IMG/VR virus record: IMGVR_UViG_3300032305_001786
Location: 1-34,478 of that record
Length of the DNA stretch: 34,478 nucleotides
Direction: 5' to 3' (one strand)
From: a virus
Taxonomy: Duplodnaviria > Caudoviricetes
Shown here one piece after another: positions 7,515-26,788 of this stretch. Positions within the stretch are counted from its first letter, which is position 1; the number at the start of each line of letters is the position of its first letter. Both the position numbers and the translations under genes were made by a program. The notes under the pieces were generated by a model. It was not told the origin of the DNA. It saw nothing but the letters and a program-made list of their open reading frames with translations, and searched no databases.

Positions 7515-8168
7515 ATGGAACAATTTAAAAGAATGCAACAATTGGCTGGTTTAATTACTGAAGGTATGGGAGCATACGAATATGAAAAAGGTAAAGAAGC
7601 TGGTGAAAAAGTTGAAAAGAAAAAAATGAAAAAATCTGAATTAAAAAAGCAGATTAAAGAAATGATCTTAGCTGAGATAGATATTGATTTATCTAATGAT
7701 GATAATTTTTATGATCCAGTAGCTGAAGCTAAGAAAAAGAAAAAAGAAGTTGAAGATATTGAAGTAGATACTAATGTTGATATGGGTACTGAAATGGATA
7801 TGGGTACAGAAATGGACACAGCATCAGTTCCAGCAGCATCAGACGTTCAAAAAGAATTAATGGACGCGTTAGAAGCGGCTAAAGCATCAGGTGATGAAAA
7901 ATTAATTCGTCAAATCGGAAACGCATTAACTTACTTCACTCGTAGTCAGGTATCTAAAGAAGAGAATCCACCATCAATGAATGAAGGTATAGAAGATATA
8001 GAAGTATCAGAGGAATCATATGAGCGTATGAATAATTTAGTTAGCCAAGATGACTATAAAAATTTCATTGATTCTGCTACTAATATTATGAATGATTTAA
8101 CCAAAGATGGATTTGAAGTAAAAGAAGCATTCTATTATCTATATACTAGATTAACAGCTGAAATATAA
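7515..8168 (+). CDS. Acidic modular protein with RMQQLAGLITE leader (putative internal head protein)
   Basis: MEQFKRMQQLAGLITEG; second motif MKKSELKKQIKEMILAE; MNE linker. Confidence 0.78.
   Translation: MEQFKRMQQLAGLITEGMGAYEYEKGKEAGEKVEKKKMKKSELKKQIKEMILAEIDIDLSNDDNFYDPVAEAKKKKKEVEDIEVDTNVDMGTEMDMGTEMDTASVPAASDVQKELMDALEAAKASGDEKLIRQIGNALTYFTRSQVSKEENPPSMNEGIEDIEVSEESYERMNNLVSQDDYKNFIDSATNIMNDLTKDGFEVKEAFYYLYTRLTAEI
7779..7814 (+). repeat. 18-bp in-frame tandem repeat (DMGTEM x2)
   Basis: gatatgggtactgaaatg / gatatgggtacagaaatg. Confidence 0.85.
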
Positions 8169-8192
8169 CAAATACAAACCAAATATAAACAA

Positions 8193-8360
8193 ATGAAACA
8201 AGAGTTATTTGAAAAAATGCAACAGACATGGGATATGTTTATAGCAGAGCATAATGGTAAAACTAAAGCAGCTCATAGTCGTGCTAGAAAATTAGCCAGT
8301 GAATTAAAAAAATTAGTAACTGAATATAAAAAAGCTTCAGTTGCTGAATCAAAATTATAA
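8193..8360 (+). CDS. Histone H1-like (Hc1-type) small basic protein, 55 aa, absent from the ORF track
   Basis: MKQELFEKMQQTWDMFIAEHNGKTKAAHSRARKLASELKKLVTEYKKASVAESKL; the KAA-x-x-RARK...EL...L..EY[K/R]KAS pattern is as I recall it for the Bacteroidota Hc1-like family. Confidence 0.75.
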   Translation: MKQELFEKMQQTWDMFIAEHNGKTKAAHSRARKLASELKKLVTEYKKASVAESKL

Positions 8361-8362
8361 TT

Positions 8363-9232
8363 ATGAAAAAATCAGACTTTGTTAAGTTAATAACTGAAAC
8401 ACTTTCAAGTAAATTAAATGAAGAATTCAATCCAGCGGATAAAATAACTCTGGATGTTCCATTATTTATACGTTTATTAGAATACGCTCGTGAAGATGCT
8501 AAAACAGATATGGATTTACATAACGTAACTGAAAAAGCAGTTTCATTAAGTACTGAAGGTAAAATTTTAACAATGAGTGATTATAATAATATAATTGATA
8601 TAAGTAAAGAAAATATGAATGAGATGCTTAATCCTAAATTAGAAAAAATTGCTAATCAAATAAGAGCCAAATTTCCTAAACAAGGTTCATATGATCCTGG
8701 TGAATTATTTGATAAATATATAGGCGATTATAATTTATCCTCAGAAGAAGATAAAATGGAAGTTTATGCTATCATTAGAGATAAAGAAAATGAAGAATTA
8801 GCTGAATCAGCACTTGGTGAAAAGAAATTAACACCAGCTGAACTTAAAAAACGTGAAGAAATAGTTAAATCAATGAAAGATACTTTTAAAGGTCCTAAAG
8901 CTGCTATGTATGCTATAGCAACTGATAAAGCTAAAAAAGTAGCTGAAGATTTAGATATTGGTCATCAAGATGATGAACCAGATATGTTAAAAGCTGATGT
9001 AGCTAGAATAGCAGAATATGCTAACAAATTATACATAATGTTAGATAAATTTGATAAAATGCCTACTGAAGTAGATTTTCCAGATTGGTGGCAATCAAAA
9101 ATTCATATAGCAGCAGAAAATATGGATAAAGCTACACATTATTTAGAATTTGAAATGAAACAACCATCTATAGATAGAAATATTAATTTAGCCGAAAAAA
9201 TAATTAAAAAATTAAAAGCTAAGAAACAATAA
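8363..9232 (+). CDS. Modular hypothetical protein (putative internal head polyprotein)
   Basis: Leader MKKSDFVKLITE...LNEE; modules (LDVPLFIRLLEYARED; LTPAELKKREEIVK...MYAIAT; DDEPDMLK...WWQSKI) separated by MNE/LAE/VAE. Confidence 0.75.
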   Translation: MKKSDFVKLITETLSSKLNEEFNPADKITLDVPLFIRLLEYAREDAKTDMDLHNVTEKAVSLSTEGKILTMSDYNNIIDISKENMNEMLNPKLEKIANQIRAKFPKQGSYDPGELFDKYIGDYNLSSEEDKMEVYAIIRDKENEELAESALGEKKLTPAELKKREEIVKSMKDTFKGPKAAMYAIATDKAKKVAEDLDIGHQDDEPDMLKADVARIAEYANKLYIMLDKFDKMPTEVDFPDWWQSKIHIAAENMDKATHYLEFEMKQPSIDRNINLAEKIIKKLKAKKQ

Positions 9233-9663
9233 TGACTAAACAAGAATTAATAGATAAAATTAAGTTAATCGCTAAAAGTAAATACAAAAAACAAATTGAA
9301 TTTACTTCAGGCGGTAGAACAAATGTTGTTGCTAAATATCCAAGTGTAAATGATGTTTTAGTTGATTTAATGACAGAACAATATGAAATATTTGTTACTG
9401 ACATTGAATGGGTAGCTCCAAAACCAACTACATTTAGAGTAATGTTAGCTAATGGTGAATATTTCTTTTTAACTCATACTGATAGAAGTTGGATAGCACA
9501 AATAGAAGGTAAAAATTTTTATTTATTAAATTTAAGTGAAAGAATAGATGCTATGAATGCTATATCTCGTGTATTAAGATATGGTCAAGGTAAAAATGAA
9601 ACTCCAGGATCTACAGAAGAAGCTCCAGCTGAAGTAACACCAGAAGAATTACCACCAGCATAA
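9232..9663 (+). CDS. Hypothetical protein
   Basis: 143-aa ORF, TAATG coupled; Pro/Glu-rich tail. Confidence 0.72.
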   Translation: MTKQELIDKIKLIAKSKYKKQIEFTSGGRTNVVAKYPSVNDVLVDLMTEQYEIFVTDIEWVAPKPTTFRVMLANGEYFFLTHTDRSWIAQIEGKNFYLLNLSERIDAMNAISRVLRYGQGKNETPGSTEEAPAEVTPEELPPA

Positions 9664-9675
9664 AAATAAAATAAA

Positions 9676-10815
9676 ATGGATGTATTAGATTTGTTTTTCA
9701 AAAAATATTCTTATAAATTTTCTAAAGGATATCCGGACATGAATAATGATCAGGATATTTTATTATTGGAAAATATATTAAATGAATTAGATATAAAAAT
9801 AAGTTTTAACGAAGTGAAAAAACCAATTGATTTTCTCTCAGATGAAGCTAAAAAAATAACACAGAATGTTATTCAAAATTTGAATATTTCTGCAGATGAT
9901 ATTAAAGCTTTATCTAAAAATAAAATAGTAATTTTATCAGATAAACGTCAAAAGATATTTTCTGAATTAGAAAAATTAGGTTATAAACGAGATAGTAATA
10001 TATCTGGTTCATCACAAGGAGGATTTAGAACTGATAATAATATTGAAATATTAGTTAAACCTAAATCAGCTCAAGGTGAAAAATCTGCTGGTAAGCAAAA
10101 TGAATCATCGTTTTTAGATTTAATAAATAATAAAGTTAAAGAAAATGATGGTCCAATTACTGTGATTATCCAGAGTGATAAGAAAAAAATTAAATTTAAT
10201 AATATAGAAGAAGCTAAAGATAGTTCAGTTGAAGGTGCTACACAATTTGCTAAAGCAGATGCTCAATTAGTTGATGATGAAGGTGAAGTGATAGGTAATA
10301 TATCACTTAAAAAACGTAATGCTGTTAGATGGGAAAGTTCAAAAACTAGAGAAATTGACGGTATTAATGTGTTTAAAAACTTTATTCAAAAAGTATCAAA
10401 TAATGTATTTCCAAATGTAAGTTTAAAACCGCTTGATAAGAAAAATAAATTTAAATTATATAATCCTCAAACTAATAAAGTATTATCTAAAGTAATCATT
10501 AAAAATACTCCTTCAGATGTAGTTAATGATGTAATATTTGGTAATGATGTTCCTAAAACTATAGTTATTAAAGAAGATTTTGAAAACTTTTCTAATTATA
10601 CTTTTGAAAACGGAGTTTTAGTTATTAATTGTTACAAAATATATACTGATGTTAAAGATATTATGGGTACTGATGATGAACCAGTATATGCATTTTCAAA
10701 TCATATTGGACAAGCATATGGTATCGAATTCAGATCATTCAGTAAAGGATTACTATACAAAGATGATTCATTAAAAGGTTCTAGTGAAGAAATAGATTTT
10801 AAAGATCTAAAATAA
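9676..10815 (+). CDS. Putative PD-(D/E)XK restriction-endonuclease-like protein
   Basis: AGKQNE...KADAQL...ISLKK fits the E...(P/A)D...(E/S)xK catalytic pattern; N-terminal segment ends ILLLENILNE. Confidence 0.55.
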   Translation: MDVLDLFFKKYSYKFSKGYPDMNNDQDILLLENILNELDIKISFNEVKKPIDFLSDEAKKITQNVIQNLNISADDIKALSKNKIVILSDKRQKIFSELEKLGYKRDSNISGSSQGGFRTDNNIEILVKPKSAQGEKSAGKQNESSFLDLINNKVKENDGPITVIIQSDKKKIKFNNIEEAKDSSVEGATQFAKADAQLVDDEGEVIGNISLKKRNAVRWESSKTREIDGINVFKNFIQKVSNNVFPNVSLKPLDKKNKFKLYNPQTNKVLSKVIIKNTPSDVVNDVIFGNDVPKTIVIKEDFENFSNYTFENGVLVINCYKIYTDVKDIMGTDDEPVYAFSNHIGQAYGIEFRSFSKGLLYKDDSLKGSSEEIDFKDLK

Positions 10816-10818
10816 AAA

Positions 10819-10826
10819 TATTTATC
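10819..10826 (+). promoter_or_regulatory. Variant late motif TATTTATC
   Basis: In a 14-nt intergenic gap, 3 nt before ATG 10830. Confidence 0.5.
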
Positions 10827-10829
10827 ATC

Positions 10830-11918
10830 ATGGATAAATTAAGACAAATAATTCGAGAAATAGCTAAACAACGTAATCTTAAACCAGATTGTGGTTGCGG
10901 ATGTAGTGGTAAATGTGGAGGTGAAAAAGCACCAATGATAAATGAAAATTTATCACGCAAACCCTTATTAAGTGAACATTTACAATACCATGTTGATAAT
11001 AAAAAACCATTAACTGAAAATACATTTCGTTATGGTTCTACTTCATTTCTTAGTTTATGGAAAGAAGCTAGAAAATTATACTCACGTAACTTACTTGAAG
11101 TATCAGGTTTAGATAAAGACATTATTGTTGAAACCAATTTAGGTGAATATGGTATATATGAAGGTCAAAAAGTACCATTAGATTTACCTATGATTGAAGA
11201 AGGTCAAATGTTAGATAATTATGAAGTTGATTTTTTTCATACTAAAGCTAATGTATATGCTAATATAGAAATACCTAGTGAAAATCCAACATTTAAAGAT
11301 GATATTCAAATAAAAGGAATAGGCAAAACTGAAGAAGAAGCATTTGAAGATTTAAAACAAAATTATAATAGTTACAAGAAAACAGGAGTAAATGAAGCTG
11401 AGTTTAAAAATACTCATAAAATTACATTAACTTTTGATGATGAAAGATTTATAAAAAGAATTCAAACTATCCCTACATTTCAAAAAATGTTAGCTCCTAA
11501 CCAAATTAAAAATTTAAAAGTAGGAGATAATGAATTAGTTGTAAATAATGTAGCTTTAAATGGTTTAGAACGTATGGAGTCTACAGGTCTTTATAAATTA
11601 AAAAAGAATATTAATGAAGCTGAATATCAAGGTAAAGAGGTTCAACTTAATAAACCTAAACGTGGTGGTTCAAAGAAATTCTACGTTTATGTTATGAATC
11701 CTAAAACTAAAAAAGTTAAAAAAGTACAGTTTGGAGCGGCAGGTGGAGGTCAAAACTTAGCAGTTAAACTTAGAGATCCTAAAGCACGTAAAGCATTTGC
11801 GGCACGTCAAAACTGTGATAAGAAAAAAGACAGAACAACACCTGGTTACTGGAGTTGTAATATAGGAAGATATTGGAAGTCATTAGGTGGAGGTTCAAAT
11901 TTTAGCGGGTATTGGTAA
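10830..11918 (+). CDS. Modular hypothetical protein with basic C-terminal domain common in T4-like phages
   Basis: Leader MDKLRQIIREI; CGCGCSGKCGG; INE/IEE/VNE/INE linkers; C-terminal KKFYVYV...VQFG...ARKAFAARQNC...GYWSC. Confidence 0.78.
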   Translation: MDKLRQIIREIAKQRNLKPDCGCGCSGKCGGEKAPMINENLSRKPLLSEHLQYHVDNKKPLTENTFRYGSTSFLSLWKEARKLYSRNLLEVSGLDKDIIVETNLGEYGIYEGQKVPLDLPMIEEGQMLDNYEVDFFHTKANVYANIEIPSENPTFKDDIQIKGIGKTEEEAFEDLKQNYNSYKKTGVNEAEFKNTHKITLTFDDERFIKRIQTIPTFQKMLAPNQIKNLKVGDNELVVNNVALNGLERMESTGLYKLKKNINEAEYQGKEVQLNKPKRGGSKKFYVYVMNPKTKKVKKVQFGAAGGGQNLAVKLRDPKARKAFAARQNCDKKKDRTTPGYWSCNIGRYWKSLGGGSNFSGYW

Positions 11919-11919
11919 T

Positions 11920-12270
11920 ATGAAACTATCAGAATTAAAACAACTTATTAGAGAAGAATACAGTTCAGCTTCAAAACTATACGAAATTGAAGGTGTTATT
12001 GTTATTGATACAGACACAGCATTTCATAAACAAATTATGTCTGATGTTCGTGCTGTTAAAGGAATAACAATTGTGAAGGATTATATTTATGAACCTGTAG
12101 GTGCAGCCGCTAATAGAGGATACGCTGATTTAGTTATTAAAATAGATCCATCTCCATTCAAACAAATGAAAGCACAAGATATTGTTGACCAAGTAGTTAA
12201 TGATATTAAAAGTGTTAAAGGTGTTAGAGCATTTAAAGTAAAAAAAGGACCATTTCAAGTTAATGTATAA
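11920..12270 (+). CDS. Hypothetical protein with MKLSELKQLIREE leader
   Basis: ATG 11920 follows stop 11918; internally repeated (V/I)(R/K)(A/S)VKG(I/V) motif. Confidence 0.72.
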   Translation: MKLSELKQLIREEYSSASKLYEIEGVIVIDTDTAFHKQIMSDVRAVKGITIVKDYIYEPVGAAANRGYADLVIKIDPSPFKQMKAQDIVDQVVNDIKSVKGVRAFKVKKGPFQVNV

Positions 12271-12728
12271 TGGATTTACATAAATTAGTTAAAGAAATAT
12301 TAAACGAAAAGAAAGTAAAACGTGACAGATGTTTACGTATTGCTGACCGTAAGTTTGATAAACCATCTGCTTACAAATCTGGTGCTGTAGTTAGATGCCG
12401 TCAAGGTAAAATATGGAAAGGTATTAAAGAAACAAATGATCCACAATCAGGTAAAGCAGCTCCATATGGATCAGGATATTCTAAATTAAAAGAATTAATT
12501 CAAGAAATTATAAATGAAGATGAATCACTTTATAAATGGTTCAAACGTTCTGGTCCTAAAGGTAAAGAAGGTGGATGGGTAGATTGTAACGCACCTGATG
12601 GTAAAGGTGGATATAAAGCATGTGGTAGAAAAAAAGGTGAAAAACGAGCCAAATACCCATCATGTCGCCCAACACCATCTAAATGTAAATCACCAGGTAA
12701 AGGTAAAAAATGGGGGAAAACAAAATGA
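12270..12728 (+). CDS. Basic Cys-containing modular protein
   Basis: Leader MDLHKLVKEILNE; internal LKELIQEIINE; modules RDRC...SAYKSGAVVRCR and SLYKWF...WVDC...CGR...YPSCRP. Confidence 0.75.
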   Translation: MDLHKLVKEILNEKKVKRDRCLRIADRKFDKPSAYKSGAVVRCRQGKIWKGIKETNDPQSGKAAPYGSGYSKLKELIQEIINEDESLYKWFKRSGPKGKEGGWVDCNAPDGKGGYKACGRKKGEKRAKYPSCRPTPSKCKSPGKGKKWGKTK

Positions 12729-13294
12729 TAAAATTATTAGGTATATTAAGTGAAATATTATCTGAAAATGATCCTAAAATAGGTACAGGCAAAAAACCTA
12801 AAGGATCAGGACGTCGTTTATACACAGATGAAGATCCTAAAGATACTGTATCTATTAAATTTAAAACTAAAGAAGATATAGTTAATACTTTAAATAAAAA
12901 ATCATTTAAATCTAAACCTCATAATCGTCAATCTCAAATTATTAATGTAATCCACCAACGAGTTAGAGCTGCTTACAATAAAGCAAAAGATCCTGAAGTG
13001 AAATCTAGATTAAAACGTGCTTTAGATTATATTGAAAAACGTAAAGAGACATCTAAAGAAAAAACTCAACATTTAAAAAATTTAAAAGAATTAGTAACAG
13101 CTACAGAAGTTATTTGTGATAATTGTGGTTGGGAATGGAAAATATCTCAAGGTGGTAAAGATCCATATTTATGTCATAAATGTGATTATGATAATACTCC
13201 AAAACAATTAAATGAAAAATGTTGGAAAGGATATACTCAAAAAGGTATGAAAACAATGTTTGGTAAAAAATATCCAAATTGTGTAAAAAAATAA
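12725..13294 (+). CDS. Basic modular protein with MIKLLGILSE leader, Zn ribbon and C-terminal CWKGY...PNCVK module
   Basis: ATGA overlap start at 12725; CDNC...CHKC; LSE/LKE/LNE linkers. Confidence 0.75.
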   Translation: MIKLLGILSEILSENDPKIGTGKKPKGSGRRLYTDEDPKDTVSIKFKTKEDIVNTLNKKSFKSKPHNRQSQIINVIHQRVRAAYNKAKDPEVKSRLKRALDYIEKRKETSKEKTQHLKNLKELVTATEVICDNCGWEWKISQGGKDPYLCHKCDYDNTPKQLNEKCWKGYTQKGMKTMFGKKYPNCVKK

Positions 13295-13304
13295 AAAACA
13301 ACTT

Positions 13305-13793
13305 ATGATAAAACTTATATCATTACTTAAAGAAATAGGAGAAGGTGTACCACCTTATAAATGGAGCGGCCCAGAAGAAAAATCTGGTGGTATAATTTAT
13401 TATTTTACAACTGAAGATAATGATTATTATAGAGTAAGATTTGATGGTACTATAGGTAATGGCTGGGAATTAAATTTTTATGTAAGAGATGAATATGAAT
13501 ATTCTTCAGGCGCCATAACTAATAAAGGACGCCAATTTAAAATAATTTCTACGATAATGGATATCATAAAATCATTTATTGAAGAATACCCCGCAGATTT
13601 AATTATATTTACTGGTTCTAATAAAGAAGGTTCAACAACAAACCAACGAGATCTTTTATATAAGAGATATATTGAGAAAAACATTAATCAACTTCCAGGT
13701 TGGGATACAAATGTCGGAATGCCTGGTCAATCAGGACATCTTTCTTTGTTTAGAGAAGAACCATTACCAGGAATGGAACTTAAACCAAATTAA
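13305..13793 (+). CDS. Hypothetical protein with MIKLISLLKE leader
   Basis: 162-aa ORF; IIFTG...QRDLLYKRY motif. Confidence 0.72.
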   Translation: MIKLISLLKEIGEGVPPYKWSGPEEKSGGIIYYFTTEDNDYYRVRFDGTIGNGWELNFYVRDEYEYSSGAITNKGRQFKIISTIMDIIKSFIEEYPADLIIFTGSNKEGSTTNQRDLLYKRYIEKNINQLPGWDTNVGMPGQSGHLSLFREEPLPGMELKPN

Positions 13794-13821
13794 AAATAAT
13801 AGTTAAATTAATAAATAAAAT

Positions 13822-14250
13822 ATGATAAAACTTATTAATATATTAAACGAAGCAGAATTAAATAAATGCCCCGCTCCTACTCAAAACATTGAGTTAAATC
13901 TTAAAAATAGACAAAAGGCTATAAATGAATATGGATATGGTCCTTTAAATCCTAATGAACCAAATGAAAAGTTCTGGGATGCTAAAGTAAAAATGTGGAA
14001 ATTAGATTCTGCAGAAGAAGCTAAAAAATCTCTTTGTGGAAACTGCGCTGCGTTTGATATAACAACTAAAACATTAGATTGTATAGCTAAAGGTATTGGA
14101 GATGATGAAGGTTCAGAAAATCCTTATGATGTAATTAATGCTGGTAAATTAGGATACTGTAGATTCTTAAAGTTTAAATGCGCGGCGGCTAGAACATGTG
14201 ATGCATGGGTTGTAGGTGGACCTATTAAGGATTCTAAGAAGTCAAAATAG
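13822..14250 (+). CDS. Cys-rich hypothetical protein with MIKLINILNE leader
   Basis: CGNC...GYC...KC...RTCDAW; possible metal or Fe-S binding. Confidence 0.72.
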   Translation: MIKLINILNEAELNKCPAPTQNIELNLKNRQKAINEYGYGPLNPNEPNEKFWDAKVKMWKLDSAEEAKKSLCGNCAAFDITTKTLDCIAKGIGDDEGSENPYDVINAGKLGYCRFLKFKCAAARTCDAWVVGGPIKDSKKSK

Positions 14251-14251
14251 T

Positions 14252-14719
14252 ATGACAGTTGAAGAATGGATACTTACTTTAACCTATACTCAAGAGTCAT
14301 TATCTAACTTATCAATTTGCCCATATGCGAAACAAGCATATCTAAATAAAAGATATTCTATATTAGATACGGAATTTAATACTATTAATTTAGATATTCA
14401 ACAATCTGATTTAACTAAACATCAAGTTATTATTTTTAAATTAAAAGATTATCAGTCTTATGATATTGAAACATTAAGACAAAAAACAAATGATCTTAAT
14501 AATGAATTTAATAAAAATGATATTGTTGTTTTAGATAATGATCCTAGAGATTCATTTGTTATTAATAATATTAAAACTACTTATGATGGATGTTATCTTT
14601 GGCTCATACAATCTTTATCAGATTTAAATGACAAATCAAAAGAACTAGAAAAAACAAATTATTATAAACATTGGACAAAAGAACAATTGGATGATGTTGT
14701 TAATTGGAGAAAAATTTAA
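14252..14719 (+). CDS. Hypothetical protein (DUF1415-like CP[Y/F]AK motif)
   Basis: W...LSICPYAK; ATG 14252 directly after stop 14250. Confidence 0.6.
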   Translation: MTVEEWILTLTYTQESLSNLSICPYAKQAYLNKRYSILDTEFNTINLDIQQSDLTKHQVIIFKLKDYQSYDIETLRQKTNDLNNEFNKNDIVVLDNDPRDSFVINNIKTTYDGCYLWLIQSLSDLNDKSKELEKTNYYKHWTKEQLDDVVNWRKI

Positions 14720-14983
14720 ATGATCCCATACACTAATATAGAAGTAACAGACAAATATATTATTCGTGAGTTTAATGAAAATATAGATCCAATTGAATTG
14801 GTGTGGCATCGTGATTTAAAATCACGTACTATAACTATTTTAGAAGGTAACGGATGGTATTTTCAACAAGACAATGAACTTCCTTTGGAATTAAAGGAAG
14901 GAGTTAGTATATTTATACCAAAATTAGAGTGGCATAGAGTGATTAAAGGAAATAGCCCTCTTAAAATTAAAATAGAAGAATGA
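14720..14983 (+). CDS. Small cupin-fold protein
   Basis: WHRD...ILEG.GW...IFIP..EWHRVIKG cupin motifs. Confidence 0.7.
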   Translation: MIPYTNIEVTDKYIIREFNENIDPIELVWHRDLKSRTITILEGNGWYFQQDNELPLELKEGVSIFIPKLEWHRVIKGNSPLKIKIEE

Positions 14984-15534
14984 AAAAATCAGAACTAAGA
15001 CAACTTATCAAAGAAGAAATTCAATCCTTAATCTTAGAAAGATTTGTAAATTTATTTAATAAAGAAGACATTAAACCTTATATTCAGGATATTTGGGATA
15101 TAATGCAACACACTTATGAGCCTATAGGTGGTTTTAAAACAGCCTCATCTCCAGATGAATTACTTAATAAAGTTAGTTTTGCTAAATTAGTTAGAAAAGA
15201 TAATAAGATAATAGCCGCAGCTTTATATAAAGACAAATATGGTAGAAAAGCCATAGCAGCAGGTTCAGATGGAAGTCCAGAAGGAACAGCAGCTGTTAAA
15301 AAAATTATTTATGAGGATGTTAAATTCTCTAGATCCTGGGGTGAATACTCAGGAAAAGCAGAAAACTTATTTCTAAAATATGGTGGAGTTCCAGTCCCTA
15401 ATACTTTAGTAGGAGATATTTTAGGTAAAGAAATTATTGAAAAAGATCCTGACGGATTTCACTATACTCGTTTAATACAGGATGAACCTGTAAGAAAAAT
15501 AATGATAGGAAATCCTGAAGGTTTGGCTTCTTAA
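14980..15534 (+). CDS. Hypothetical protein with MKKSELRQLIKEE leader
   Basis: Leader ends LILE; globular alpha/beta domain of unknown function follows. Confidence 0.75.
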   Translation: MKKSELRQLIKEEIQSLILERFVNLFNKEDIKPYIQDIWDIMQHTYEPIGGFKTASSPDELLNKVSFAKLVRKDNKIIAAALYKDKYGRKAIAAGSDGSPEGTAAVKKIIYEDVKFSRSWGEYSGKAENLFLKYGGVPVPNTLVGDILGKEIIEKDPDGFHYTRLIQDEPVRKIMIGNPEGLAS

Positions 15535-18831: not shown

Positions 18832-18860
18832 TTGGTTTTTAGATTTTACTTTGTTATATT
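18832..18860 (+). promoter_or_regulatory. TTG-N20-TATATT promoter
   Basis: TTG 18832-18834, TATATT 18855-18860, ATG 6 nt downstream. Confidence 0.7.
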
Positions 18861-18866
18861 CATAGT

Positions 18867-19391
18867 ATGAAAATAGGTTTATGTGGAACAGTGAGTGTTG
18901 GAAAAACAACACTTGTTAATGCTCTTAAAGAATTAGAGCAATTTAAAAATTATCAGACAGCAACTGAACGTAGTAAATATTTAATGGAACTAGGTATACC
19001 ATTAAATACAGATTCAACATTACCAGGTCAGTTTGTATTTATGGCTGAACGAGCTAGTGAATTACTACAAGAAAATATTATTACTGATAGAACAGTATAT
19101 GATGTATGTGCATTTACATTTAGTGCTAAATCAATTGATTTTTCACAAAAAAGAACATTTGTTGAAGCAGCTATACCATTAGTTAAAATGTATGATATAA
19201 TATTTTATGTATCACCTGAAGGAGTTAACATTGAAGATAACGGTATTAGAACAACTGATCCTGATTATCGTACAAAAATAGATATGGTTATTCAAGCTAT
19301 GTTAGATGAATATCCACCAAATAAATTAGTTAAAATATCTGGAACCACTGAGGAAAGAATACAACAAATTAAAGAAGCATTATCTTTATAA
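18867..19391 (+). CDS. P-loop nucleoside/nucleotide kinase (AAA_28, NadR/Ttd14-like)
   Basis: GTVSVGKTT, ITDRTVYD, YDIIFY, EDNGIR, GTTEERI. Confidence 0.82.
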   Translation: MKIGLCGTVSVGKTTLVNALKELEQFKNYQTATERSKYLMELGIPLNTDSTLPGQFVFMAERASELLQENIITDRTVYDVCAFTFSAKSIDFSQKRTFVEAAIPLVKMYDIIFYVSPEGVNIEDNGIRTTDPDYRTKIDMVIQAMLDEYPPNKLVKISGTTEERIQQIKEALSL

Positions 19392-19399
19392 TATTTATA
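19392..19399 (+). promoter_or_regulatory. Putative late promoter motif TATTTATA
   Basis: Intergenic; heads the run of genes containing the terminase. Confidence 0.7.
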
Positions 19400-19413
19400 C
19401 ATAAATAATAACC

Positions 19414-20073
19414 ATGAGAAAAATAAATATTCGTCAAATTATTAAAGAAGAAATAGATATTGCTTTAGATGAAATGGCTCGTGCTAAAGTAATTTACACA
19501 GTTAAAGATAAACCATCATTACAAAAAGTAGTAGACGCAACTAAAGGTAATACTAAAATGGCTTTACAATACCTTTTAGATAAAGGTGAAATGGTTATAG
19601 CTGATTTAGCTAAAGAATTAAAGAAAGATCCAGCTACATTTAATAATCCTGGTTTTAGAAAATTAATGTCAGACTTATCTGATAAAAATGTAGTATCAAT
19701 GAATTCAGCAGGTACTCCATCTGTTCCAAGTATGTCTAAAGTAGAAAAACCTGCTCCTAAAGTTGATATGACTGTTGGTGGTGATGATTTTGAAAAAGAA
19801 ATGCCATCAGATATGGATGTAATGGCTGGTGAAAAAGAATTTGGTAATGTTGGAGTTGAAAAATTAGCTGATGAAGAAAAAGCTAAATTTGAAAAACTAA
19901 ATTCAGCTATTAGAAATAAGGTAGCCAAATTAGAAAAAATGTCACCTAAAGATAGAGCTAAATCAATGGATTTAGTTGTTGTAAAACAAATTATTAACAA
20001 ACCTGAAGTTAAAAAATTATTTAGATCTAAAGGTGTAGACGTGATGGACTTGGTAAGTTCAGTTATAAGCTAA
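19414..20073 (+). CDS. Putative winged-HTH protein with IRQIIKEE leader
   Basis: Leader ends ALDE; ALQYLLDKGEMVIADLAKELKKDPATF...LSDKNVV resembles a MarR/ArsR-type wHTH. Confidence 0.6.
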   Translation: MRKINIRQIIKEEIDIALDEMARAKVIYTVKDKPSLQKVVDATKGNTKMALQYLLDKGEMVIADLAKELKKDPATFNNPGFRKLMSDLSDKNVVSMNSAGTPSVPSMSKVEKPAPKVDMTVGGDDFEKEMPSDMDVMAGEKEFGNVGVEKLADEEKAKFEKLNSAIRNKVAKLEKMSPKDRAKSMDLVVVKQIINKPEVKKLFRSKGVDVMDLVSSVIS

Positions 20074-20074
20074 T

Positions 20075-20635
20075 TTGAAAATTAAAATAGAACATATTAT
20101 TATAGCTATACTTGTCGTTGCATTAATTTTGCAACGACAATGTTCTTCTCCTGGTGATGTGACTGAAAAAATAATAATTGAAACCAGATATGATACTATA
20201 AAAAAAGAAACACCAGTATATACTCCTAAATGGAATACACGTACTGAAGTAGATATAGATACTTTTCTTTCTCCTGTAGATAGCTTGGCTATATTAAAAG
20301 AATTTTATATATTATATAATTACATAGATACAGTAGGAACAGATAGTGTTAAAATTATTATTAATGATTCTGTCACAACAAATAAAATAATAGCAAGACA
20401 AGTAAATTATAAAGTAATATATCCAACTATTACCATAACTAAAGAAAAAATGTTAAACAAGACACAGTATTTTTATGGTTTTGGAATAGGAGCAAGAAAT
20501 AATGGTTTTAATTATGTGGGTCCTGAACTTATGTTAAAAACAAAAACAAATAAAGCATATGGATTAGGTGTTGGTATTAATAATAATCTATCTCCAGTTG
20601 CTAATTTTAGAATGTACTGGAAAATAGGTAAATAA
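20075..20635 (+). CDS. Exported/membrane-anchored protein (possible spanin-like lysis protein)
   Basis: TTG start; N-terminal hydrophobic helix followed by Cys; C-terminal Gly/aromatic beta strands ending YWKIGK. Confidence 0.55.
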   Translation: MKIKIEHIIIAILVVALILQRQCSSPGDVTEKIIIETRYDTIKKETPVYTPKWNTRTEVDIDTFLSPVDSLAILKEFYILYNYIDTVGTDSVKIIINDSVTTNKIIARQVNYKVIYPTITITKEKMLNKTQYFYGFGIGARNNGFNYVGPELMLKTKTNKAYGLGVGINNNLSPVANFRMYWKIGK

Positions 20636-22233
20636 TGAGTCAAGACTTAAAAGAAATAATAAAACAAGAATACATAAAATGTCTACAGTCACCTGAGCAT
20701 TTTATGAAAAAATATTGTAATATCCAGCATCCACAACGTGGGCGTATTATTTTTAATTTATATCCATTTCAAGGTAAAGTATTAAATTTATGGAGAGATA
20801 ACCCATATTCTATAGTACTAAAATCACGTCAGTTAGGTATTTCTACATTAGCAGCCGGATATTCTTTATGGTTAATGTTATTCCATAAAGATAAAAATGT
20901 ACTATGTTTAGCTACTACACAAGAAACAGCTAAAAACATGGTTACTAAGGTAAGATTTATGTATGATAACTTACCAACTTGGTTGAAAATAAAAGATGTA
21001 GAAAATAATAGATTAAGTTTAAAATTATCTAACGGTTCAACTATAAAAGCTAAATCATCCAATAGTGATGCAGCACGTTCAGAAGCAGTATCATTACTTA
21101 TAATTGATGAGGCGGCGTTTATTGATAATGTAGCTGAAACATGGGCTTCTGCTCAACAAACTTTAGCTACTGGTGGTGGAGCTATTGTATTATCTACACC
21201 TTATGGTACTGGTAATTGGTTTCATAAAATGTGGGTATCAGCAGAATCATCAACTGATGATGGTACTGGTAAAAAGTTCTTACCTATTAAGTTACCATGG
21301 TATGTTCATCCTGAAAGAAATGAATTATGGAGAAAAGAACAAGATGAATTATTAGGTGATCCTAGATTAGCAGCACAAGAATGTGATTGTGATTTTAGTA
21401 CATCTGGGGATGTAGTATTTTATAATGATTTTTTAGATTTTTATGAAAAAACATATATAAAAGAACCTCTTGAACGAAGAGGAGTAGATAAAAATCTTTG
21501 GATATGGGAACAGGTTGACTATCATCGCCAATATATGGTTGTAGCAGACGTTGCTCGAGGTGATGGTAAAGATCACTCAGCATTCCATGTTATAGATATT
21601 GAATCTAATACTCAAGTAGCAGAATATAGAGGTCAATTATCAACTACAGAATTTGGACATTTATTAGTTGGTATAGCTTCTGAATATAATGAAGCATTAT
21701 TAGTAGTTGAAAATGCTACTATGGGTTGGGCTACTATACAGACAATAATAGAAAGAGGATATAGAAACCTATATCATTCATCTAAAAGTGATAAAGCAGA
21801 AGCTTCTACGTATTTTGATAGATATGGAAGTAATGATAATTTAACACCAGGATTCACTAACTCATTAAAAACTAGACCAATGGTAGTAAACAAGTTTAGA
21901 GAGTATATAAGTGAAAAAAGTGTTATAATACAATCTAAACGTTTAATTGAAGAAATGAAAGTATTTATTTGGAAAAACGGCAGAGCTGAAGCACAAGCAG
22001 GTTATAATGATGATTTAGTTATGAGTTTAGGCATAGGATTGTATGTTAGAGATACTGCTTTAAGATTTAGTGAAAATGGTACTGAATTATCTAAATCTGT
22101 ATTAAATAATTTTACAAAGACTTCATTTAATGCTGGAGCATATTCAGCAAATAATAATTTTTATTCACCAACAAAAACCTGGGACATGGATGTAAACGGC
22201 CAAAAAGAAGACATAAGCTGGTTACTAAGATAA
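20635..22233 (+). CDS. terL: Terminase large subunit (T4 gp17-like)
   Basis: YPFQ, KSRQLGIST Walker A, LIIDEAAF Walker B, LSTPYG coupling motif, ADVARG and DDLVMS nuclease motifs. Confidence 0.97.
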   Translation: MSQDLKEIIKQEYIKCLQSPEHFMKKYCNIQHPQRGRIIFNLYPFQGKVLNLWRDNPYSIVLKSRQLGISTLAAGYSLWLMLFHKDKNVLCLATTQETAKNMVTKVRFMYDNLPTWLKIKDVENNRLSLKLSNGSTIKAKSSNSDAARSEAVSLLIIDEAAFIDNVAETWASAQQTLATGGGAIVLSTPYGTGNWFHKMWVSAESSTDDGTGKKFLPIKLPWYVHPERNELWRKEQDELLGDPRLAAQECDCDFSTSGDVVFYNDFLDFYEKTYIKEPLERRGVDKNLWIWEQVDYHRQYMVVADVARGDGKDHSAFHVIDIESNTQVAEYRGQLSTTEFGHLLVGIASEYNEALLVVENATMGWATIQTIIERGYRNLYHSSKSDKAEASTYFDRYGSNDNLTPGFTNSLKTRPMVVNKFREYISEKSVIIQSKRLIEEMKVFIWKNGRAEAQAGYNDDLVMSLGIGLYVRDTALRFSENGTELSKSVLNNFTKTSFNAGAYSANNNFYSPTKTWDMDVNGQKEDISWLLR

Positions 22234-22235
22234 CA

Positions 22236-22243
22236 TATTTATA
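22236..22243 (+). promoter_or_regulatory. Putative late promoter motif TATTTATA
   Basis: In a 13-nt gap, 3 nt before the portal ATG. Confidence 0.7.
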
Positions 22244-22246
22244 ATT

Positions 22247-24127
22247 ATGGCAGACACTAATATATTTACACGATTAAAACGATTATTCTCAACAGATGTT
22301 GTCATCAGAAATGTTGGAGGAAATGAACTTAAAGTAATAGATGTTAACGCAATCCAACGTTCTGGCGAGATTGAAACTAACTCATTATTAGATAGATTTA
22401 ATAGAATCTACACTACAAGTCCTACTTCATTATATGGTTATCAACAAAACTTTAATTACCAAACATTACGTACTCAATTATATTCAGAGTATGATGTAAT
22501 GGATGGTGATGCTATTGTAGCTTCTGCTTTAGATATTATAGCAGATGAATGTACACTTAAAAATGAACAAGATGAAGTATTACATATTAAGTCAAATGAT
22601 GAAGATGTTCAGAAAATATTATACAACTTATTTTATGATGTATTAAATATTGAATTTAACTTATGGTCATGGGCTCGCCAAATGTGTAAATATGGTGATT
22701 TTTTCTTAAAACTAGAAATAGCAGAAAAATATGGTGTTTACAATGTTATACCATATACCGCATACCATATTGAAAGACAAGAAATGTTTGATCGTGAAAA
22801 TCCATCAGCTGTAAGATTTAGATATGATCCTGAAGGATTATCAGCTGGTGAATATGGATATTATAATCTACCAGGTTCAAATACAAACAATAGTATATAT
22901 TTTGATAATTACGAAATGGCACATTTCCGTTTATTATCTGACACTAACTTTTTACCATATGGTAGAAGTTATATTGAACCAGCTCGTAGATTATTTAAAC
23001 AATATACATTAATGGAAGATGCGATGTTAGTTCATCGTATTGTTCGCGCACCAGAAAAACGTGTTTTCTATATTAATGTAGCAGGTATTAACCCAGCTGA
23101 AGTAGAAGGCTTCATGCAAAAAACAGTTAATACTATGAAACGTACTCCATATATTGATCCTAAAACCGGTGATTATAACTTGAAGTATAATATGCAAAAC
23201 ATGATGGAAGATTTTTATATTCCAATTCGTGGTAATGACCAATCAACTAAAATTGATACAACAAAAGGATTAGAATATGATGGTATTAAAGACGTTGAAT
23301 ATTTAAGAGATAAATTATTTGCAGCGTTAAAGGTACCTAAAGCTTTTATGGGTTATGAAAAAGACTTAACTGGTAAAGCTACATTAGCTGCTGAAGATAT
23401 TAGATTTGCTCGTACTATAGAACGTATACAACGTATATTAGTATCTGAATTATACAAAATAGCATTAATTCACTTATACACTCAAGGTTATACTGAAGAA
23501 TCATTAACTAATTTTGAATTATCATTAACCACACCATCAATTATATACGATCAAGAACGTATAGCTTTATTAAAAGAAAAAGTAGAATTAGCTGGTAATA
23601 TTTTAGAGAAAAAATTATTCCCATCAGATTGGATTTATGATAATTTATTCCATGTAAGTGATGAACAATATAATGAGTATAGAGATTTAATTCGTGAAGA
23701 TGCTAAACGTGATTTCCGTTTAACACAGATTCAAGAAGAAGGTAATGATCCATTAGAAACAGGTAAGTCTTATGGTACACCACATGATTTAGCTTATTTA
23801 TACGGTAATACTAAAAATCATGGTACTGTACCTGATGGATATGATGAAAAAACTCCATTAGGTCGTCCAAAAGAAAAAGTATCTAATATTAACACACAAG
23901 ATAACTCACTTGGTCGTGATAGATTAGGTAGAAAAGATAATAAAGTTGATGACCAAGAATCATTTGGTACACCTAATTATAAAGGAGGATCACCATTAGC
24001 ATTAGAAAATAACCACTATGAATTTTTAAAAAATAAAGTAATACTAGAATCTATGAAGAAAAAATTAGTATTTGATAAAGAAAGAACAACTGGAACATAT
24101 CTAGACGAAAATCTTATTAAGGATTAA
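22247..24127 (+). CDS. Portal protein (T4 gp20-like)
   Basis: ALDIIADE, LMEDAMLVHRIVRAPEKRVFYINV, EDFYIPIRG, DVEYLRDKLFAALKVP, EDIRFARTIERIQ. Confidence 0.96.
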   Translation: MADTNIFTRLKRLFSTDVVIRNVGGNELKVIDVNAIQRSGEIETNSLLDRFNRIYTTSPTSLYGYQQNFNYQTLRTQLYSEYDVMDGDAIVASALDIIADECTLKNEQDEVLHIKSNDEDVQKILYNLFYDVLNIEFNLWSWARQMCKYGDFFLKLEIAEKYGVYNVIPYTAYHIERQEMFDRENPSAVRFRYDPEGLSAGEYGYYNLPGSNTNNSIYFDNYEMAHFRLLSDTNFLPYGRSYIEPARRLFKQYTLMEDAMLVHRIVRAPEKRVFYINVAGINPAEVEGFMQKTVNTMKRTPYIDPKTGDYNLKYNMQNMMEDFYIPIRGNDQSTKIDTTKGLEYDGIKDVEYLRDKLFAALKVPKAFMGYEKDLTGKATLAAEDIRFARTIERIQRILVSELYKIALIHLYTQGYTEESLTNFELSLTTPSIIYDQERIALLKEKVELAGNILEKKLFPSDWIYDNLFHVSDEQYNEYRDLIREDAKRDFRLTQIQEEGNDPLETGKSYGTPHDLAYLYGNTKNHGTVPDGYDEKTPLGRPKEKVSNINTQDNSLGRDRLGRKDNKVDDQESFGTPNYKGGSPLALENNHYEFLKNKVILESMKKKLVFDKERTTGTYLDENLIKD

Positions 24128-24138
24128 TACTTTTAACA

Positions 24139-24146
24139 TATTTATA
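24139..24146 (+). promoter_or_regulatory. Putative late promoter motif TATTTATA
   Basis: Intergenic, 16 nt before ATG 24163. Confidence 0.7.
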
Positions 24147-24162
24147 ATAAAATTTACTTATA

Positions 24163-25017
24163 ATGTTAATAAAACATAATAAATTCAAAAACTCAGGCTT
24201 AATATTTGAACTATTAGTTAGACAAATTACAGCAGACACATTATCAGGTAAAGAGTCACCATCAATTAATATTTTAAAAAAATATTTTGTTAAAACAGAA
24301 TTAAGTAAAGAATATAAATTATATGATACTGTGTTAAAACAGTCTCAAATTACAGAAGCTAAAGCTAATATGATCATTGAAGAAGTATTAAAAGCATCTC
24401 GTAAATTGAATAGAACTATTTTACGTAAAGAAAAGTATAATTTAATTAGTGAAATTAAATCTCATTATAATTTAGATGAGTTTTTTAGAACTAAACTTCC
24501 AAATTATACATCTCAAGCTGCATTATATACATTAATTGAAATATATAATAATCAAGAATTAACAGATCCTAACCAAATTATTTCTAATAAAATAACATTA
24601 TTAGAAAATTTAACTGCTCAACCAGTTAAAGAAAAGGAAGTTAGAGAGAATATTATTGAAGAGTTTAAAAAATATGATAAAGATTTACGTCTATTAACAT
24701 ATCAAGTTTTATTAGAAAAATTTAATGGTAAATATAATTCTTTAAATGATAATCAAAAGGTAGTATTAAGAGAATTTATCAACTTAGTAGATAATACCCC
24801 ACGTTTAAGAGAATTTTATAACATTAAAATTAATGAAATTAAAACTCAATTAACTAAATTAAATAAATCAGTTACTGATAAAGTAACTCAAATTAAGTTA
24901 AATGAAGTTATATCATTAATCACAGAAATTAATAAAACTTCAAAAATATCAAATGATGATTTAGTAAATTTATTACAATACTATTCATTAGTTGATGAAT
25001 TAAAATCAGTAAAATGA
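24163..25017 (+). CDS. Alpha-helical prohead-associated protein (hypothetical)
   Basis: Lies between portal and protease, the position of T4 core genes 67/68; Leu/Lys/Glu rich. Confidence 0.7.
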   Translation: MLIKHNKFKNSGLIFELLVRQITADTLSGKESPSINILKKYFVKTELSKEYKLYDTVLKQSQITEAKANMIIEEVLKASRKLNRTILRKEKYNLISEIKSHYNLDEFFRTKLPNYTSQAALYTLIEIYNNQELTDPNQIISNKITLLENLTAQPVKEKEVRENIIEEFKKYDKDLRLLTYQVLLEKFNGKYNSLNDNQKVVLREFINLVDNTPRLREFYNIKINEIKTQLTKLNKSVTDKVTQIKLNEVISLITEINKTSKISNDDLVNLLQYYSLVDELKSVK

Positions 25018-25337
25018 CCCCAGATAAATTAAAAGAATTAGTTAAAAAAACTCTACAAGAAATGTCTATGACTGGTGGAGGTACAGCTGGAGGAGCATTT
25101 AGTGCTGGTGTAGGTATGAATTATGCTACACCTAAAGCATTTAAAAAAGTAAAAAACATAGATGAAACAGCATATGGTACAGGTAATTTAGGTCCTGGTC
25201 CTAAAGCTGGAAAAGATGGGGTTAAAGATAATTATTATGTGAAAGCATTTGGATTTAAACCTGTTAATCGCAAAAAACAAGCAAAATCATCTAAAGCTAT
25301 AGATTATAAAGATCTATGGGGTAAAACATATAAATAA
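25014..25337 (+). CDS. Small basic protein with LKELVKKTLQE leader
   Basis: ATGA overlap; Gly-rich modules after LQE and IDE. Confidence 0.7.
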   Translation: MTPDKLKELVKKTLQEMSMTGGGTAGGAFSAGVGMNYATPKAFKKVKNIDETAYGTGNLGPGPKAGKDGVKDNYYVKAFGFKPVNRKKQAKSSKAIDYKDLWGKTYK

Positions 25338-25345
25338 TATTTATT
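25338..25345 (+). promoter_or_regulatory. Variant late motif TATTTATT
   Basis: Intergenic, before ATG 25361. Confidence 0.5.
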
Positions 25346-25360
25346 ATAAACAATATTAAC

Positions 25361-26788
25361 ATGAGAAATACACTTCAAGAACAATACAATTCAATTAAAG
25401 AAGGCAAAGGAGCTAAAGATGTGTTTTTAAAACACGCTAAATCTTTATTCCCAAATTTAATACCTAATCATTATGAATTTAATTCAGCATCTAAAATACT
25501 TCTTCAACGTGGTATTATATCTGAAAACATGATCCTAAATGAAAACTTATGGGGTATAACTACAGGTAATAATAAACAACCTGATTGGTTTAAACTATTT
25601 AATGAAAATATAGTTACAGAACTTAATTATTATGATGTAGCTAAATCTATAAACAAAGAATATAATCCTAACATTTATAAAGATGAATTGAACGATTTCT
25701 TATATGATGAAGCAAGTATTAATGCTATTAATAGTGGATCAGATATACTTACTACATTTAAGAAATTTTTAGGTGTAATTAAAGAATCTAAAGAATATAA
25801 TGCTTCATCTGAAGAAAAAGAAACTAAAGCTGATGCTTCTAAACCATCTAAAGAAGTAGATGAATATAAAGAAAAATCTGCTAGTAAACAATATGAAGCA
25901 GAAACTGGTAATGATGTTATTTTTGACCAATACTTAAATGGTATTCAAATTGAAACAAATAAATCAGAAAATAACAGTAAAACTGTTGATGAATTAAAGA
26001 AAATTGTATTAAAGAATCTTAAAAAAGATAACTTATACTATACTAAAAACGCTGCTTTCGGTATTGAAGGTATTGGATATACAGACGAAGCACCAGGTTT
26101 AGGTAAAACTAAAGAAGTAAAAGGTAAATACGCTTCATCAGGTATGGAACCAGTTAAATTAAAAGAAGGTATTGGAATGTTTAATGATCCTATAGGATTT
26201 AAAAAACCTGAATTAAGTGATATAGATAAAATGTTTACTAAAGAATATAAAGGTGACGGAATATATGTAATCTTTAAAAATGGTAAAGAAGTTAAAACTA
26301 TTAAAGGTGAAGGTAACGCTAACGCATGGATAAATGATCAAAAAAGAAATATGAAATTACAAGAATCTCAATTACGATCAGTAATTCGTCAATTAATTAA
26401 AGAAGAACTTAATTTAAAAGAAATCGATCAAATCGGTGAAGAAGCCGCTAAAGAAGCTAAAGTTAAGAAAATTAGCGACGAAATTAATAAACGTAAGAAA
26501 AAAATCAAAGCGTTAGAAACATTAAAAGAATTAGAAGATGATTCAATTAATCCTAAAAAATTAAAAGAATTATATTCTGAAATTAAAAAACTTGAAGCTG
26601 CTAAAAACAAACTTGAGAAAAAAGGTAAGAAAAAAGAAACATTAGTAGACGAAGTTACTGTTATAGATAAAACTACTACTAGTGATGAAGTAGCTGATAT
26701 TGCTAAACAAGAAAAAACTACACCTGCCGCTGTAAAACAAGCAATTAGTACTGCTAAAACTTCAGGTAAACCAGTAAATGTAGCTTAA
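25361..26788 (+). CDS. Large modular prohead core/internal protein (hypothetical)
   Basis: Many [L/I]-x-E sites; internal LQESQLRSVIRQLIKEEL motif; coiled-coil C-terminus; directly upstream of the protease. Confidence 0.72.
   Translation: MRNTLQEQYNSIKEGKGAKDVFLKHAKSLFPNLIPNHYEFNSASKILLQRGIISENMILNENLWGITTGNNKQPDWFKLFNENIVTELNYYDVAKSINKEYNPNIYKDELNDFLYDEASINAINSGSDILTTFKKFLGVIKESKEYNASSEEKETKADASKPSKEVDEYKEKSASKQYEAETGNDVIFDQYLNGIQIETNKSENNSKTVDELKKIVLKNLKKDNLYYTKNAAFGIEGIGYTDEAPGLGKTKEVKGKYASSGMEPVKLKEGIGMFNDPIGFKKPELSDIDKMFTKEYKGDGIYVIFKNGKEVKTIKGEGNANAWINDQKRNMKLQESQLRSVIRQLIKEELNLKEIDQIGEEAAKEAKVKKISDEINKRKKKIKALETLKELEDDSINPKKLKELYSEIKKLEAAKNKLEKKGKKKETLVDEVTVIDKTTTSDEVADIAKQEKTTPAAVKQAISTAKTSGKPVNVA

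What the first reader, a model, noticed from the sequence alone, without database searches (positions are those of the whole stretch)
7515..26788. Second leader class L[RK]Q[LI]I[KR]EE on many unrelated proteins
Seen at N-termini: 8363 MKKSDFVKLITE, 10830 MDKLRQIIREI, 11920 MKLSELKQLIREE, 12270 MDLHKLVKEILNE, 14980 MKKSELRQLIKEEIQSLILE, 19414 MRKINIRQIIKEEIDIALDE and 25014 MTPDKLKELVKKTLQE. Internal copies occur in 7515 (MKKSELKKQIKEMILAE), 12270 (LKELIQEIINE), 25361 (QLRSVIRQLIKEEL) and weakly in the scaffold (EDLKNFIESVIED). The downstream domains share nothing. Two carriers lie inside the portal-protease block. Inference: an amphipathic helix that co-assembles with the prohead core, recruits cargo and is then cut off.
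Basis: partly seen in the sequence, partly recalled or inferred. Interest (0 to 1): 0.82.

Follow-up and report, generated by a model that had tools for sequence, protein, structure and literature searches.

The report
Clip-off capsid-loading helix on phage cargo
An uncultured T4-like phage related to Flavobacterium phages starts many unrelated proteins with the same short helix ending in a motif that fits its head protease; the helix likely loads them into the capsid and is then cut off, as shown for phage T4, but no particle of this group has been measured.

Summary
The motif is real. All ten quoted carriers are at the stated places. A matrix trained on the window alone finds 8/198, 3/157, 8/348 and 5/200 N-terminal hits in four related genomes (shuffle means 0.07-0.31). 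It finds 0/45 named replication, metabolic or lysis proteins and 0/18 tail proteins of Flavobacterium phage immuto. The full leader is about 20 residues, MKKSEL[KR]Q[IL]I[KR]E-E-I-x-x-x-L-x-E, and sits on more than 100 unrelated families. Its core (hydrophobic-x-x-hydrophobic-hydrophobic-x-E) has the spacing of the T4 capsid-targeting sequence and ends in the gp21 site L/I-x-E. Leaders are swapped on the same cargo while that junction stays (49/50; 60/64). In cyanophage S-CREM2 the generic core marks 5/52 virion proteins against 2/167 undetected ones. Best reading (0.75): a longer variant of the T4 tag that loads cargo, such as a predicted GNAT-fold protein, into the prohead. Terminase and a baseplate-block gene also score. 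Nothing is measured in this clade. The scan reported such leaders before on other DNA.

The parts
7626..7676 (+). internal leader copy in gene 7515 (residues 38-54), beginning at a Met; the gene also starts with an RMQxLAGL-type leader
   Evidence: score 28.2; sequence
8363..8422 (+). leader of gene 8363, sites ending at E12 and E20
   Evidence: score 24.4; sites
10830..10859 (+). short leader of gene 10830, site ending at E10
   Evidence: score 27.9
11619..11918 (+). basic C-terminal module of 10830 (pI 10.3) behind I-N-E263; a stand-alone gene in two phages without a gp21-type protease
11920..11955 (+). leader of gene 11920, site ending at E12
   Evidence: score 29.8
12270..12308 (+). leader of gene 12270, site ending at E13
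   Evidence: score 27.1
12486..12518 (+). internal copy in 12270 (residues 73-83) between two basic Cys-containing modules
   Evidence: score 28.7; pI
14980..15039 (+). full 20-residue leader of 14980, predicted helix 3-19, sites ending at E12 and E20
15040..15534 (+). cargo domain of 14980, predicted GNAT acetyltransferase-like fold
   Evidence: pLDDT 91; best Z 10.9, rmsd 4.3, 141 aligned
19414..19473 (+). 20-residue leader of 19414, sites ending at E12 and E20
   Evidence: score 27.1; junction kept in 8 of 8 homologues
25014..25061 (+). leader of 25014 (K at the usual E12 column; site ending at E16); not conserved in most orthologues
26366..26422 (+). internal copy in 25361 (residues 336-354), flanked by sites at E335, E348 and E354
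   Evidence: score 31.5; 19 of 60 positional orthologues
26790..27404 (+). T4 gp21-type prohead protease (Peptidase_S77), the predicted processing enzyme; its own N-terminus fits the generic core
   Evidence: PF03420 E 2e-29; 30% identical to T4 gp21, E 9e-22
22247..24127 (+). T4-type portal protein
   Evidence: PF07230
24163..25017 (+). conserved all-helical protein of the head block, no known family; candidate core protein
   Evidence: 7989 of 8000 scored candidates are homologues; model pLDDT 69, pTM 0.37; only uncharacterised fold matches
27612..28583 (+). acidic protein between protease and capsid genes, taken as the scaffold by position; central conserved helix at 28020-28058 only weakly like the leader
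28617..30290 (+). Gp23-type major capsid protein
   Evidence: PF07068; 56% to immuto
3818..3847 (+). sister leader (MIKL type) on a P-loop kinase; the same type starts 12725, 13305 and 13822
1239..1304 (+). sister leader (RMQKLAGL type, like the scaffold's C-terminal tail); also at 7515 and 16243

Best explanation
The motif is a portable 12-20-residue leader, predicted to form an amphipathic helix, that likely acts as a T4-type capsid-targeting sequence: it likely docks unrelated proteins into the assembling prohead core and is then likely cut off by the phage's gp21-type protease after L/I-x-E (E12 and/or E20). Shown by sequence and searches: the motif, its enrichment, its absence from replication and tail genes, its portability and the conserved glutamate junction. 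Inferred from T4: packaging, cleavage and delivery of some mature cargo into the host. Internal copies likely come from fusion of tagged genes and would make these proteins precursors that are cut into modules. The binding partner is unknown.
For: (1) Context: portal, S77 protease and Gp23 capsid; nearest cultured relative is immuto. (2) Enrichment of 25-70 fold over shuffles in four genomes; 0/45 named replication, metabolism or lysis proteins and 0/18 tail, baseplate or neck proteins of immuto. (3) T4's 10-residue tag uses residues 4 and 7 for targeting and 8 and 10 for processing, and gp21 cuts after L/I-X-E (PMC9026906). T4 IPII, IPIII and gp24 match the generic core, and the leader has the same spacing at L6, I/L9, I10, E12. 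(4) In the 14980 family the conserved body is preceded by E in 50/50 and hydrophobic-x-E in 49/50, while only 23/50 score as this leader at the N-terminus; others carry MKLL-type, FDL-type or 4-5-residue stubs. The predicted GNAT fold starts at about residue 19-20. (5) The 10830 module follows hydrophobic-x-E in 60/64 proteins and in 3/3 cultured T4-like phages with an S77 protease. In 2/2 phages without one it is a free gene that starts at the predicted cut. (6) 439 representatives at 50% clustering match the leader profile; 139 of the best 150 have it within residue 6; 125 bodies fall into 111 families. (7) In S-CREM2 the generic core, fixed, marks 5/52 virion-detected against 2/167 undetected proteins, p=0.009.
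Against: No virion data exist here for this clade; the S-CREM2 proteins carry the short T4-like tag, not this leader, and the authors warn of co-purification. T4's own tags score negative on the leader matrix (-4 to -9), so sequence kinship is not shown beyond the shared spacing. The terminase N-terminus, which is not expected inside the head, scores >=12 in 6 of 14 distinct sequences. A conserved gene just before the baseplate gp25-like gene carries the motif (64/120 score >=12). The wider [LIM][NTKSRQ]E count in carrier bodies is no more enriched than an Asp control in most genomes; only [LIM]NE is (4-5 fold in three genomes, about 2 fold in two). The E12 and E20 counts in profile hits are partly circular.
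Confidence: 0.75

Rival explanations
1. The helix is an oligomerisation or localisation tag for late proteins that act in the infected cell or in tail and baseplate assembly, and the carriers are not packaged in the head.
For: A conserved gene in the baseplate block carries the motif in G002, G003 and immuto. The helix is amphipathic (moment 0.54-0.88 in carriers, overlapping non-carriers at 0.23-0.76). No measured virion data.
Against: It does not explain the fixed glutamate junction on swapped leaders, the link to the presence of an S77 protease, or the S-CREM2 virion association of the generic core. 0/18 named tail proteins carry it.
Confidence: 0.13
2. The leader mimics the terminase N-terminal helix and binds the portal or packaging motor from outside the head.
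For: Terminase N-termini score >=12 in 6 of 14 distinct sequences, up to 20.8; the window's scores 10.4.
Against: The terminase lacks the MKKSE start and the L18-x-E20 site. The motif is degenerate enough to hit unrelated helices (cGAS, old yellow enzyme). More than 100 unrelated families competing for the portal is implausible (inference).
Confidence: 0.05
3. The signal is at DNA or RNA level (A-rich translation start or a recombination anchor) or is compositional noise.
For: Leader codons lean to the commonest A-rich codons (for example GAA in 43 of 44).
Against: Synonymous codons vary at Leu and Ile positions across 52 DNA instances. Hits lie in coding frames of one strand (13 on +, 1 on -). 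Shuffles give 0.07-0.31 hits. Internal copies exist far from starts.
Confidence: 0.03

Closest known systems
Capsid-targeting sequence (CTS) of phage T4 internal proteins IPI, IPII, IPIII (also Alt and gp24 propeptides), removed by gp21 (PMC9026906, PMC5694885, PMC3012670; passages read)
   Same: T4-type head module with a gp21 homologue; short N-terminal tag on diverse unrelated cargo; same spacing of hydrophobic residues and final glutamate; ends in L/I-x-E.
   Different: Longer (12-20 against 10 residues for IPIII), Lys-rich, two tandem sites; T4 tags score negative on its matrix; occurs internally and in fusions; coexists with three or four other tag types in one genome; spread over more than 100 families; not measured.
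Propeptides of phiKZ-like and SPN3US head proteins; P1 DarB packaging signal (PMC5694885, PMC9024508; passages read)
   Same: N-terminal addressing of proteins to the head; glutamate-specific maturation with redundant sites in the giant phages.
   Different: Those propeptides are mostly over 100 residues with A/S-x-E sites; P1 Dar proteins share no consensus.
Encapsulation peptides of bacterial microcompartments, such as PduP (PMC4594438, PMC12339742, PMC12108088; passages read)
   Same: About 18-residue terminal amphipathic helix on unrelated cargo of a protein shell; the PduP residues reported as important (L6, L9, I10, I13, L14) overlap the leader's L6, I/L9, I10, I14.
   Different: No homology shown; those peptides stay attached through a long linker and are not cleaved; position 13 of the leader is mostly Glu. 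An analogy only.

Membership tests
T4-type capsid-targeting sequence | Genome encodes a gp21-type (S77) prohead protease with T4-type portal and capsid | tested here: met
T4-type capsid-targeting sequence | Short N-terminal peptide with hydrophobic residues spaced as T4 positions 4, 7, 8 and Glu at 10 | tested here: met
   generic core matches T4 IPII, IPIII, gp24 (not IPI or Alt) and 6 of the 7 N-terminal carriers (not 25014)
T4-type capsid-targeting sequence | Ends in L/I-x-E at the boundary of the cargo domain | tested here: met
   49/50, 8/8 and 60/64; fold starts at residue 19-20
T4-type capsid-targeting sequence | Shared by unrelated cargo, absent from replication and tail proteins | tested here: met
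   exceptions: terminase and a baseplate-block gene
T4-type capsid-targeting sequence | Sequence homology to the T4 tag beyond the shared spacing | tested here: inconclusive
   T4 tags score -4 to -9 on the leader matrix; the leader profile finds nothing in T4, S-CREM2, Melnitz or RM378; too short to decide
T4-type capsid-targeting sequence | Carriers are packaged in virions and cleaved; tag is sufficient to package a foreign protein | not testable with these tools
   no virion proteome of this clade found; only indirect support from S-CREM2
Bacterial microcompartment encapsulation peptide | 15-20-residue terminal amphipathic helix on cargo | tested here: met
   helix 3-19; hydrophobic moment
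Bacterial microcompartment encapsulation peptide | Separated from the cargo by a long poorly conserved linker | tested here: not met
   in 14980 the helix runs straight into the first strand
Bacterial microcompartment encapsulation peptide | Self-bundling and condensation of tagged cargo | not tested
   needs an in vitro assay

The most novel reading that the evidence does not exclude
This phage clade runs a multi-address loading code. One tag copies the scaffold's C-terminal tail, another is a short T4-like tag, and this one is an encapsulation-peptide-like helix that bundles with itself to condense cargo into the prohead core, convergent with bacterial microcompartments. The protease then frees hundreds of families of injected effectors, cut from fused polyproteins.
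Probability: 0.25. Interest if true: 0.75.

Novelty: new variant of a known kind. Interest (0 to 1): 0.5.

Why it matters
In T4 the tagged internal proteins include an injected anti-restriction factor (PMC9026906, PMC3012670). If this leader does the same job, it is a sequence handle that predicts which of the many unannotated proteins of abundant aquatic Bacteroidota-type phages are packaged and possibly injected. Only 3 of 95 carriers scanned had any Pfam hit at E<=1e-4. It also tells where the mature protein starts, which helps folding and annotation, as with the GNAT-fold 14980. A cultured relative (immuto) carries the leader, so the idea is directly testable. The mechanism itself is known from T4, so this extends rather than overturns.

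Tried and rejected
Co-folding 24163, the scaffold (central helix to C-terminus) and the leader gave no verdict (score 0.00 in two runs); this is no evidence either way. Scaffold helix as source of the leader: ranked first in 17 of 58 scaffolds under an expanded matrix, median score 0.3; best HMM hit in 10 of 58; only immuto (8.8 bits) and the Mel-JY01 scaffold (E 0.056) look alike. Kept as a weak lead. 24163: no Atlas hit, low-confidence model, only uncharacterised fold matches. tblastn of the 21-residue leader against phage records: no match, too short. PDB sequence search with the leader profile: chance-like helices only. Pfam on the 34 leader rows: nine single-member weak hits. Mel-JY01 and RM378 head regions: 1 of 32 and 0 of 24 genes score >=12. 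Sequencing runs: no RNA holder listed. Upstream TATTTAT motif: enriched before tagged genes in G003 (7/13 vs 23/144) and G001 (7/11 vs 93/337), not significantly in the window, G002 or immuto. Two Roseobacter phage homologues of the 10830 module (CRP-2, CRP-6) align only from query residue 10-11 and were not tested for a protease. Literature searches returned nothing; searches listed no title or abstract start describing this leader. The library lacks most subscription journals, the immuto isolation paper was not listed, and I read no supplements, which may hold virion data.
Full report
Setting. The 34.5-kb window is a fragment of a T4-like myophage. It encodes terminase (20635), a Portal_T4 protein (22247), a Peptidase_S77 protease (26790), an acidic scaffold candidate (27612) and a Gp23 capsid protein (28617). 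The nearest cultured relative by capsid protein is Flavobacterium phage immuto (56%). The host of the window's phage is inferred from that, not shown. I fetched three long uncultured relatives (G001-G003), the whole immuto genome and 80 loci around the protease, and called genes with a simple script.

Observation. All ten quoted copies are present, and the nine carrier bodies are unrelated. A matrix built only from those ten copies scores >=12 at the N-terminus of 8/198, 3/157, 8/348 and 5/200 genes in G002, G003, G001 and immuto. Shuffle means are 0.07-0.31 and internal-window expectations 0.04-0.28. Five G002 hits are orthologues of window carriers, one G001 hit is the terminase, and one immuto hit (146609) looks spurious. 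Hits cluster between the primase region and the capsid gene (G002 7/37 against 1/161; I drew those boundaries after seeing the data). The title regex itself fits only 2 of 10 copies.

Anatomy. A 24-position profile matches 439 representatives at E<=0.001 among 1.84 billion. Of the best 150, 139 carry it within residue 6, and the 125 bodies of 40 residues or more fall into 111 single-linkage families. I scanned the 95 longer ones: 3 had a Pfam hit at E<=1e-4. The consensus is M-K-K-S-E-L-[KR]-Q-[IL]-I-[KR]-E-E-I-x-x-x-L-x-E, with hydrophobic-x-E ending at residue 12 in 120 and at residue 20 in 93 of 132 N-terminal cases; this is partly circular because the profile holds those columns. Of 53 internal copies, 39 begin at or next to a Met, which suggests fusion of whole tagged genes, though the profile favours Met. 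In the 14980 model (pLDDT 91) residues 3-19 are one helix, and the rest matches GNAT acetyltransferases (best Z 10.9, rmsd 4.3, 141 aligned; most rows start at residues 14-20). A shared fold does not show function.

Link to the protease. T4 gp21 cuts after L/I-X-E. The first ten residues of IPIII suffice for packaging, residues 4 and 7 mainly target, and 8 and 10 direct processing (PMC9026906, passages). T4 IPII, IPIII and gp24 match the pattern hydrophobic-x-x-hydrophobic-hydrophobic-x-E; IPI and Alt do not. The leader has this spacing at L6, I/L9, I10, E12. The same core is in the first 14 residues of 11/43 window genes (shuffle mean 1.0) and of 13/198, 14/157, 36/348 and 16/200 genes in the relatives (means 2.5-7.5). 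The window protease is 30% identical to gp21 over 199 residues.

Swap tests. In 50 members of the 14980 family (query included), E precedes the conserved body in 50 and hydrophobic-x-E in 49. Only 23 score as this leader at their N-terminus; others have MKLL-type, FDL-type or 4-5-residue stubs. The basic C-terminal module of 10830 follows hydrophobic-x-E in 60 of 64 distinct proteins, whose N-termini are this leader in 23, MIKL-type in 3 and unclassified in 38. In cultured phages it follows such a site in Melnitz, C48C1 and HTVC008M, which encode an S77 protease. It is a free gene beginning at the predicted cut in Aegir and HTVC111P, which have no S77 hit. That is five genomes only.

Measured analogue. 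Using Table 3 of PMC10665884 (section read), the generic core fixed marks 5 of 52 virion-detected S-CREM2 proteins and 2 of 167 undetected ones (p=0.009). The five are those named SAM hydrolase, kinase and cytidylyltransferase and two hypothetical proteins. They carry the short T4-like tag, not this leader, and the authors note possible co-purification. PMC9602691 (passages) reports related nucleotidyltransferases in other cyanophage virions; the passages of PMC12801897 list none among its 23 virion proteins. The window's own nucleotidyltransferase-domain gene 4639 fits the generic core but found no cyanophage homologue.

Against. Terminase N-termini score >=12 in 6/14, and a conserved gene before gp25 scores in 64/120; neither is explained. 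T4's tags score negative on the matrix, and the profile finds nothing in T4, S-CREM2, Melnitz or RM378. [LIM]NE is 4-5 fold enriched in carrier bodies in three genomes and about 2 fold in two, but the wider pattern is matched by an Asp control.

Mechanism. Late-made cargo carries the helix (late timing inferred from gene position). The helix likely associates with the prohead core, the shell closes, and the protease likely cuts at E12 and/or E20 and at internal sites. This would leave mostly basic modules (predicted pI 8-10.6; 8363 is 5.1) and enzymes inside the head, some of which would enter the host. The partner is unknown. The helix resembles microcompartment encapsulation peptides in length and hydrophobic spacing (PMC4594438), and those bundle with each other and condense cargo (PMC12339742; PMC12108088). 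Self-bundling is therefore a testable variant, but it is only an analogy.

Novelty and verdict. It works like the T4 capsid-targeting sequence and meets the sequence-level criteria; packaging and cleavage are untested, so membership is probable, not shown. I found no paper on this leader in searches of an incomplete library. Six earlier notes of this scan reached the same reading on other DNA; my reading was recorded before I saw them, and they are not independent evidence. PMC5694885, PMC3012670 and PMC9024508 were seen as passages. New variant of a known kind; interest 0.5.

Noticed in passing
G002 40006 (L084:6006-6353), G003 9568, immuto 81525; outside the window: Conserved 110-140-residue gene just before the gp25-like baseplate gene starts with an extended form of the leader (135 homologues; 98/120 have the generic core). 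It could be the source of the tag or a counter-example.
   Followed up: partly
window 20635-20667: Terminase N-terminal helix resembles the leader (10.4 here, up to 20.8 in relatives).
   Followed up: partly
window 1220, 3768, 7489, 10819, 19392, 22236, 24139, 25338, 30346, 31049, 32654, 33198: TATTTAT lies 11-50 bases upstream of 12 genes; 7/18 tail genes against 3/45 replication or metabolic genes in immuto. Candidate late promoter; from memory it is the reverse complement of the T4 late promoter.
   Followed up: partly
window 1239, 7515, 16243 and 28557-28580: A second tag (RMQKLAGL type) matches the conserved C-terminal tail of the scaffold.
   Followed up: partly
orthologues of window 25014 in L001-L080: 36 of 59 start with a further tag-like KYK[LI]-type N-terminus instead.
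   Followed up: no
G001 130917-183715: At least eight genes start with a very short MKI[ILV]xxE form of the core; G001 also has a second, divergent capsid-gene match near 236-238 kb.
   Followed up: no
window 7626: The internal copy in 7515 starts at an ATG behind an A-rich stretch and may be a second in-frame start.
   Followed up: no
window 3818-6099; G001 6421: P-loop kinase, nucleotidyltransferase and 5'-nucleotidase domains sit in the tagged cluster; G001 fuses homologues of 4639 and 12710 into a 1337-residue protein. A similar cluster is in HTVC008M.
   Followed up: partly
window 8193-8360: Histone H1-like Hc1 protein (PF07432, E 1e-7) inside the cargo cluster.
   Followed up: no
L226:18839-19939 (Mel-JY01): The scaffold of this phage holds a leader-like stretch centrally; its head block resembles this clade although the record names a cyanobacterial host.
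   Followed up: partly
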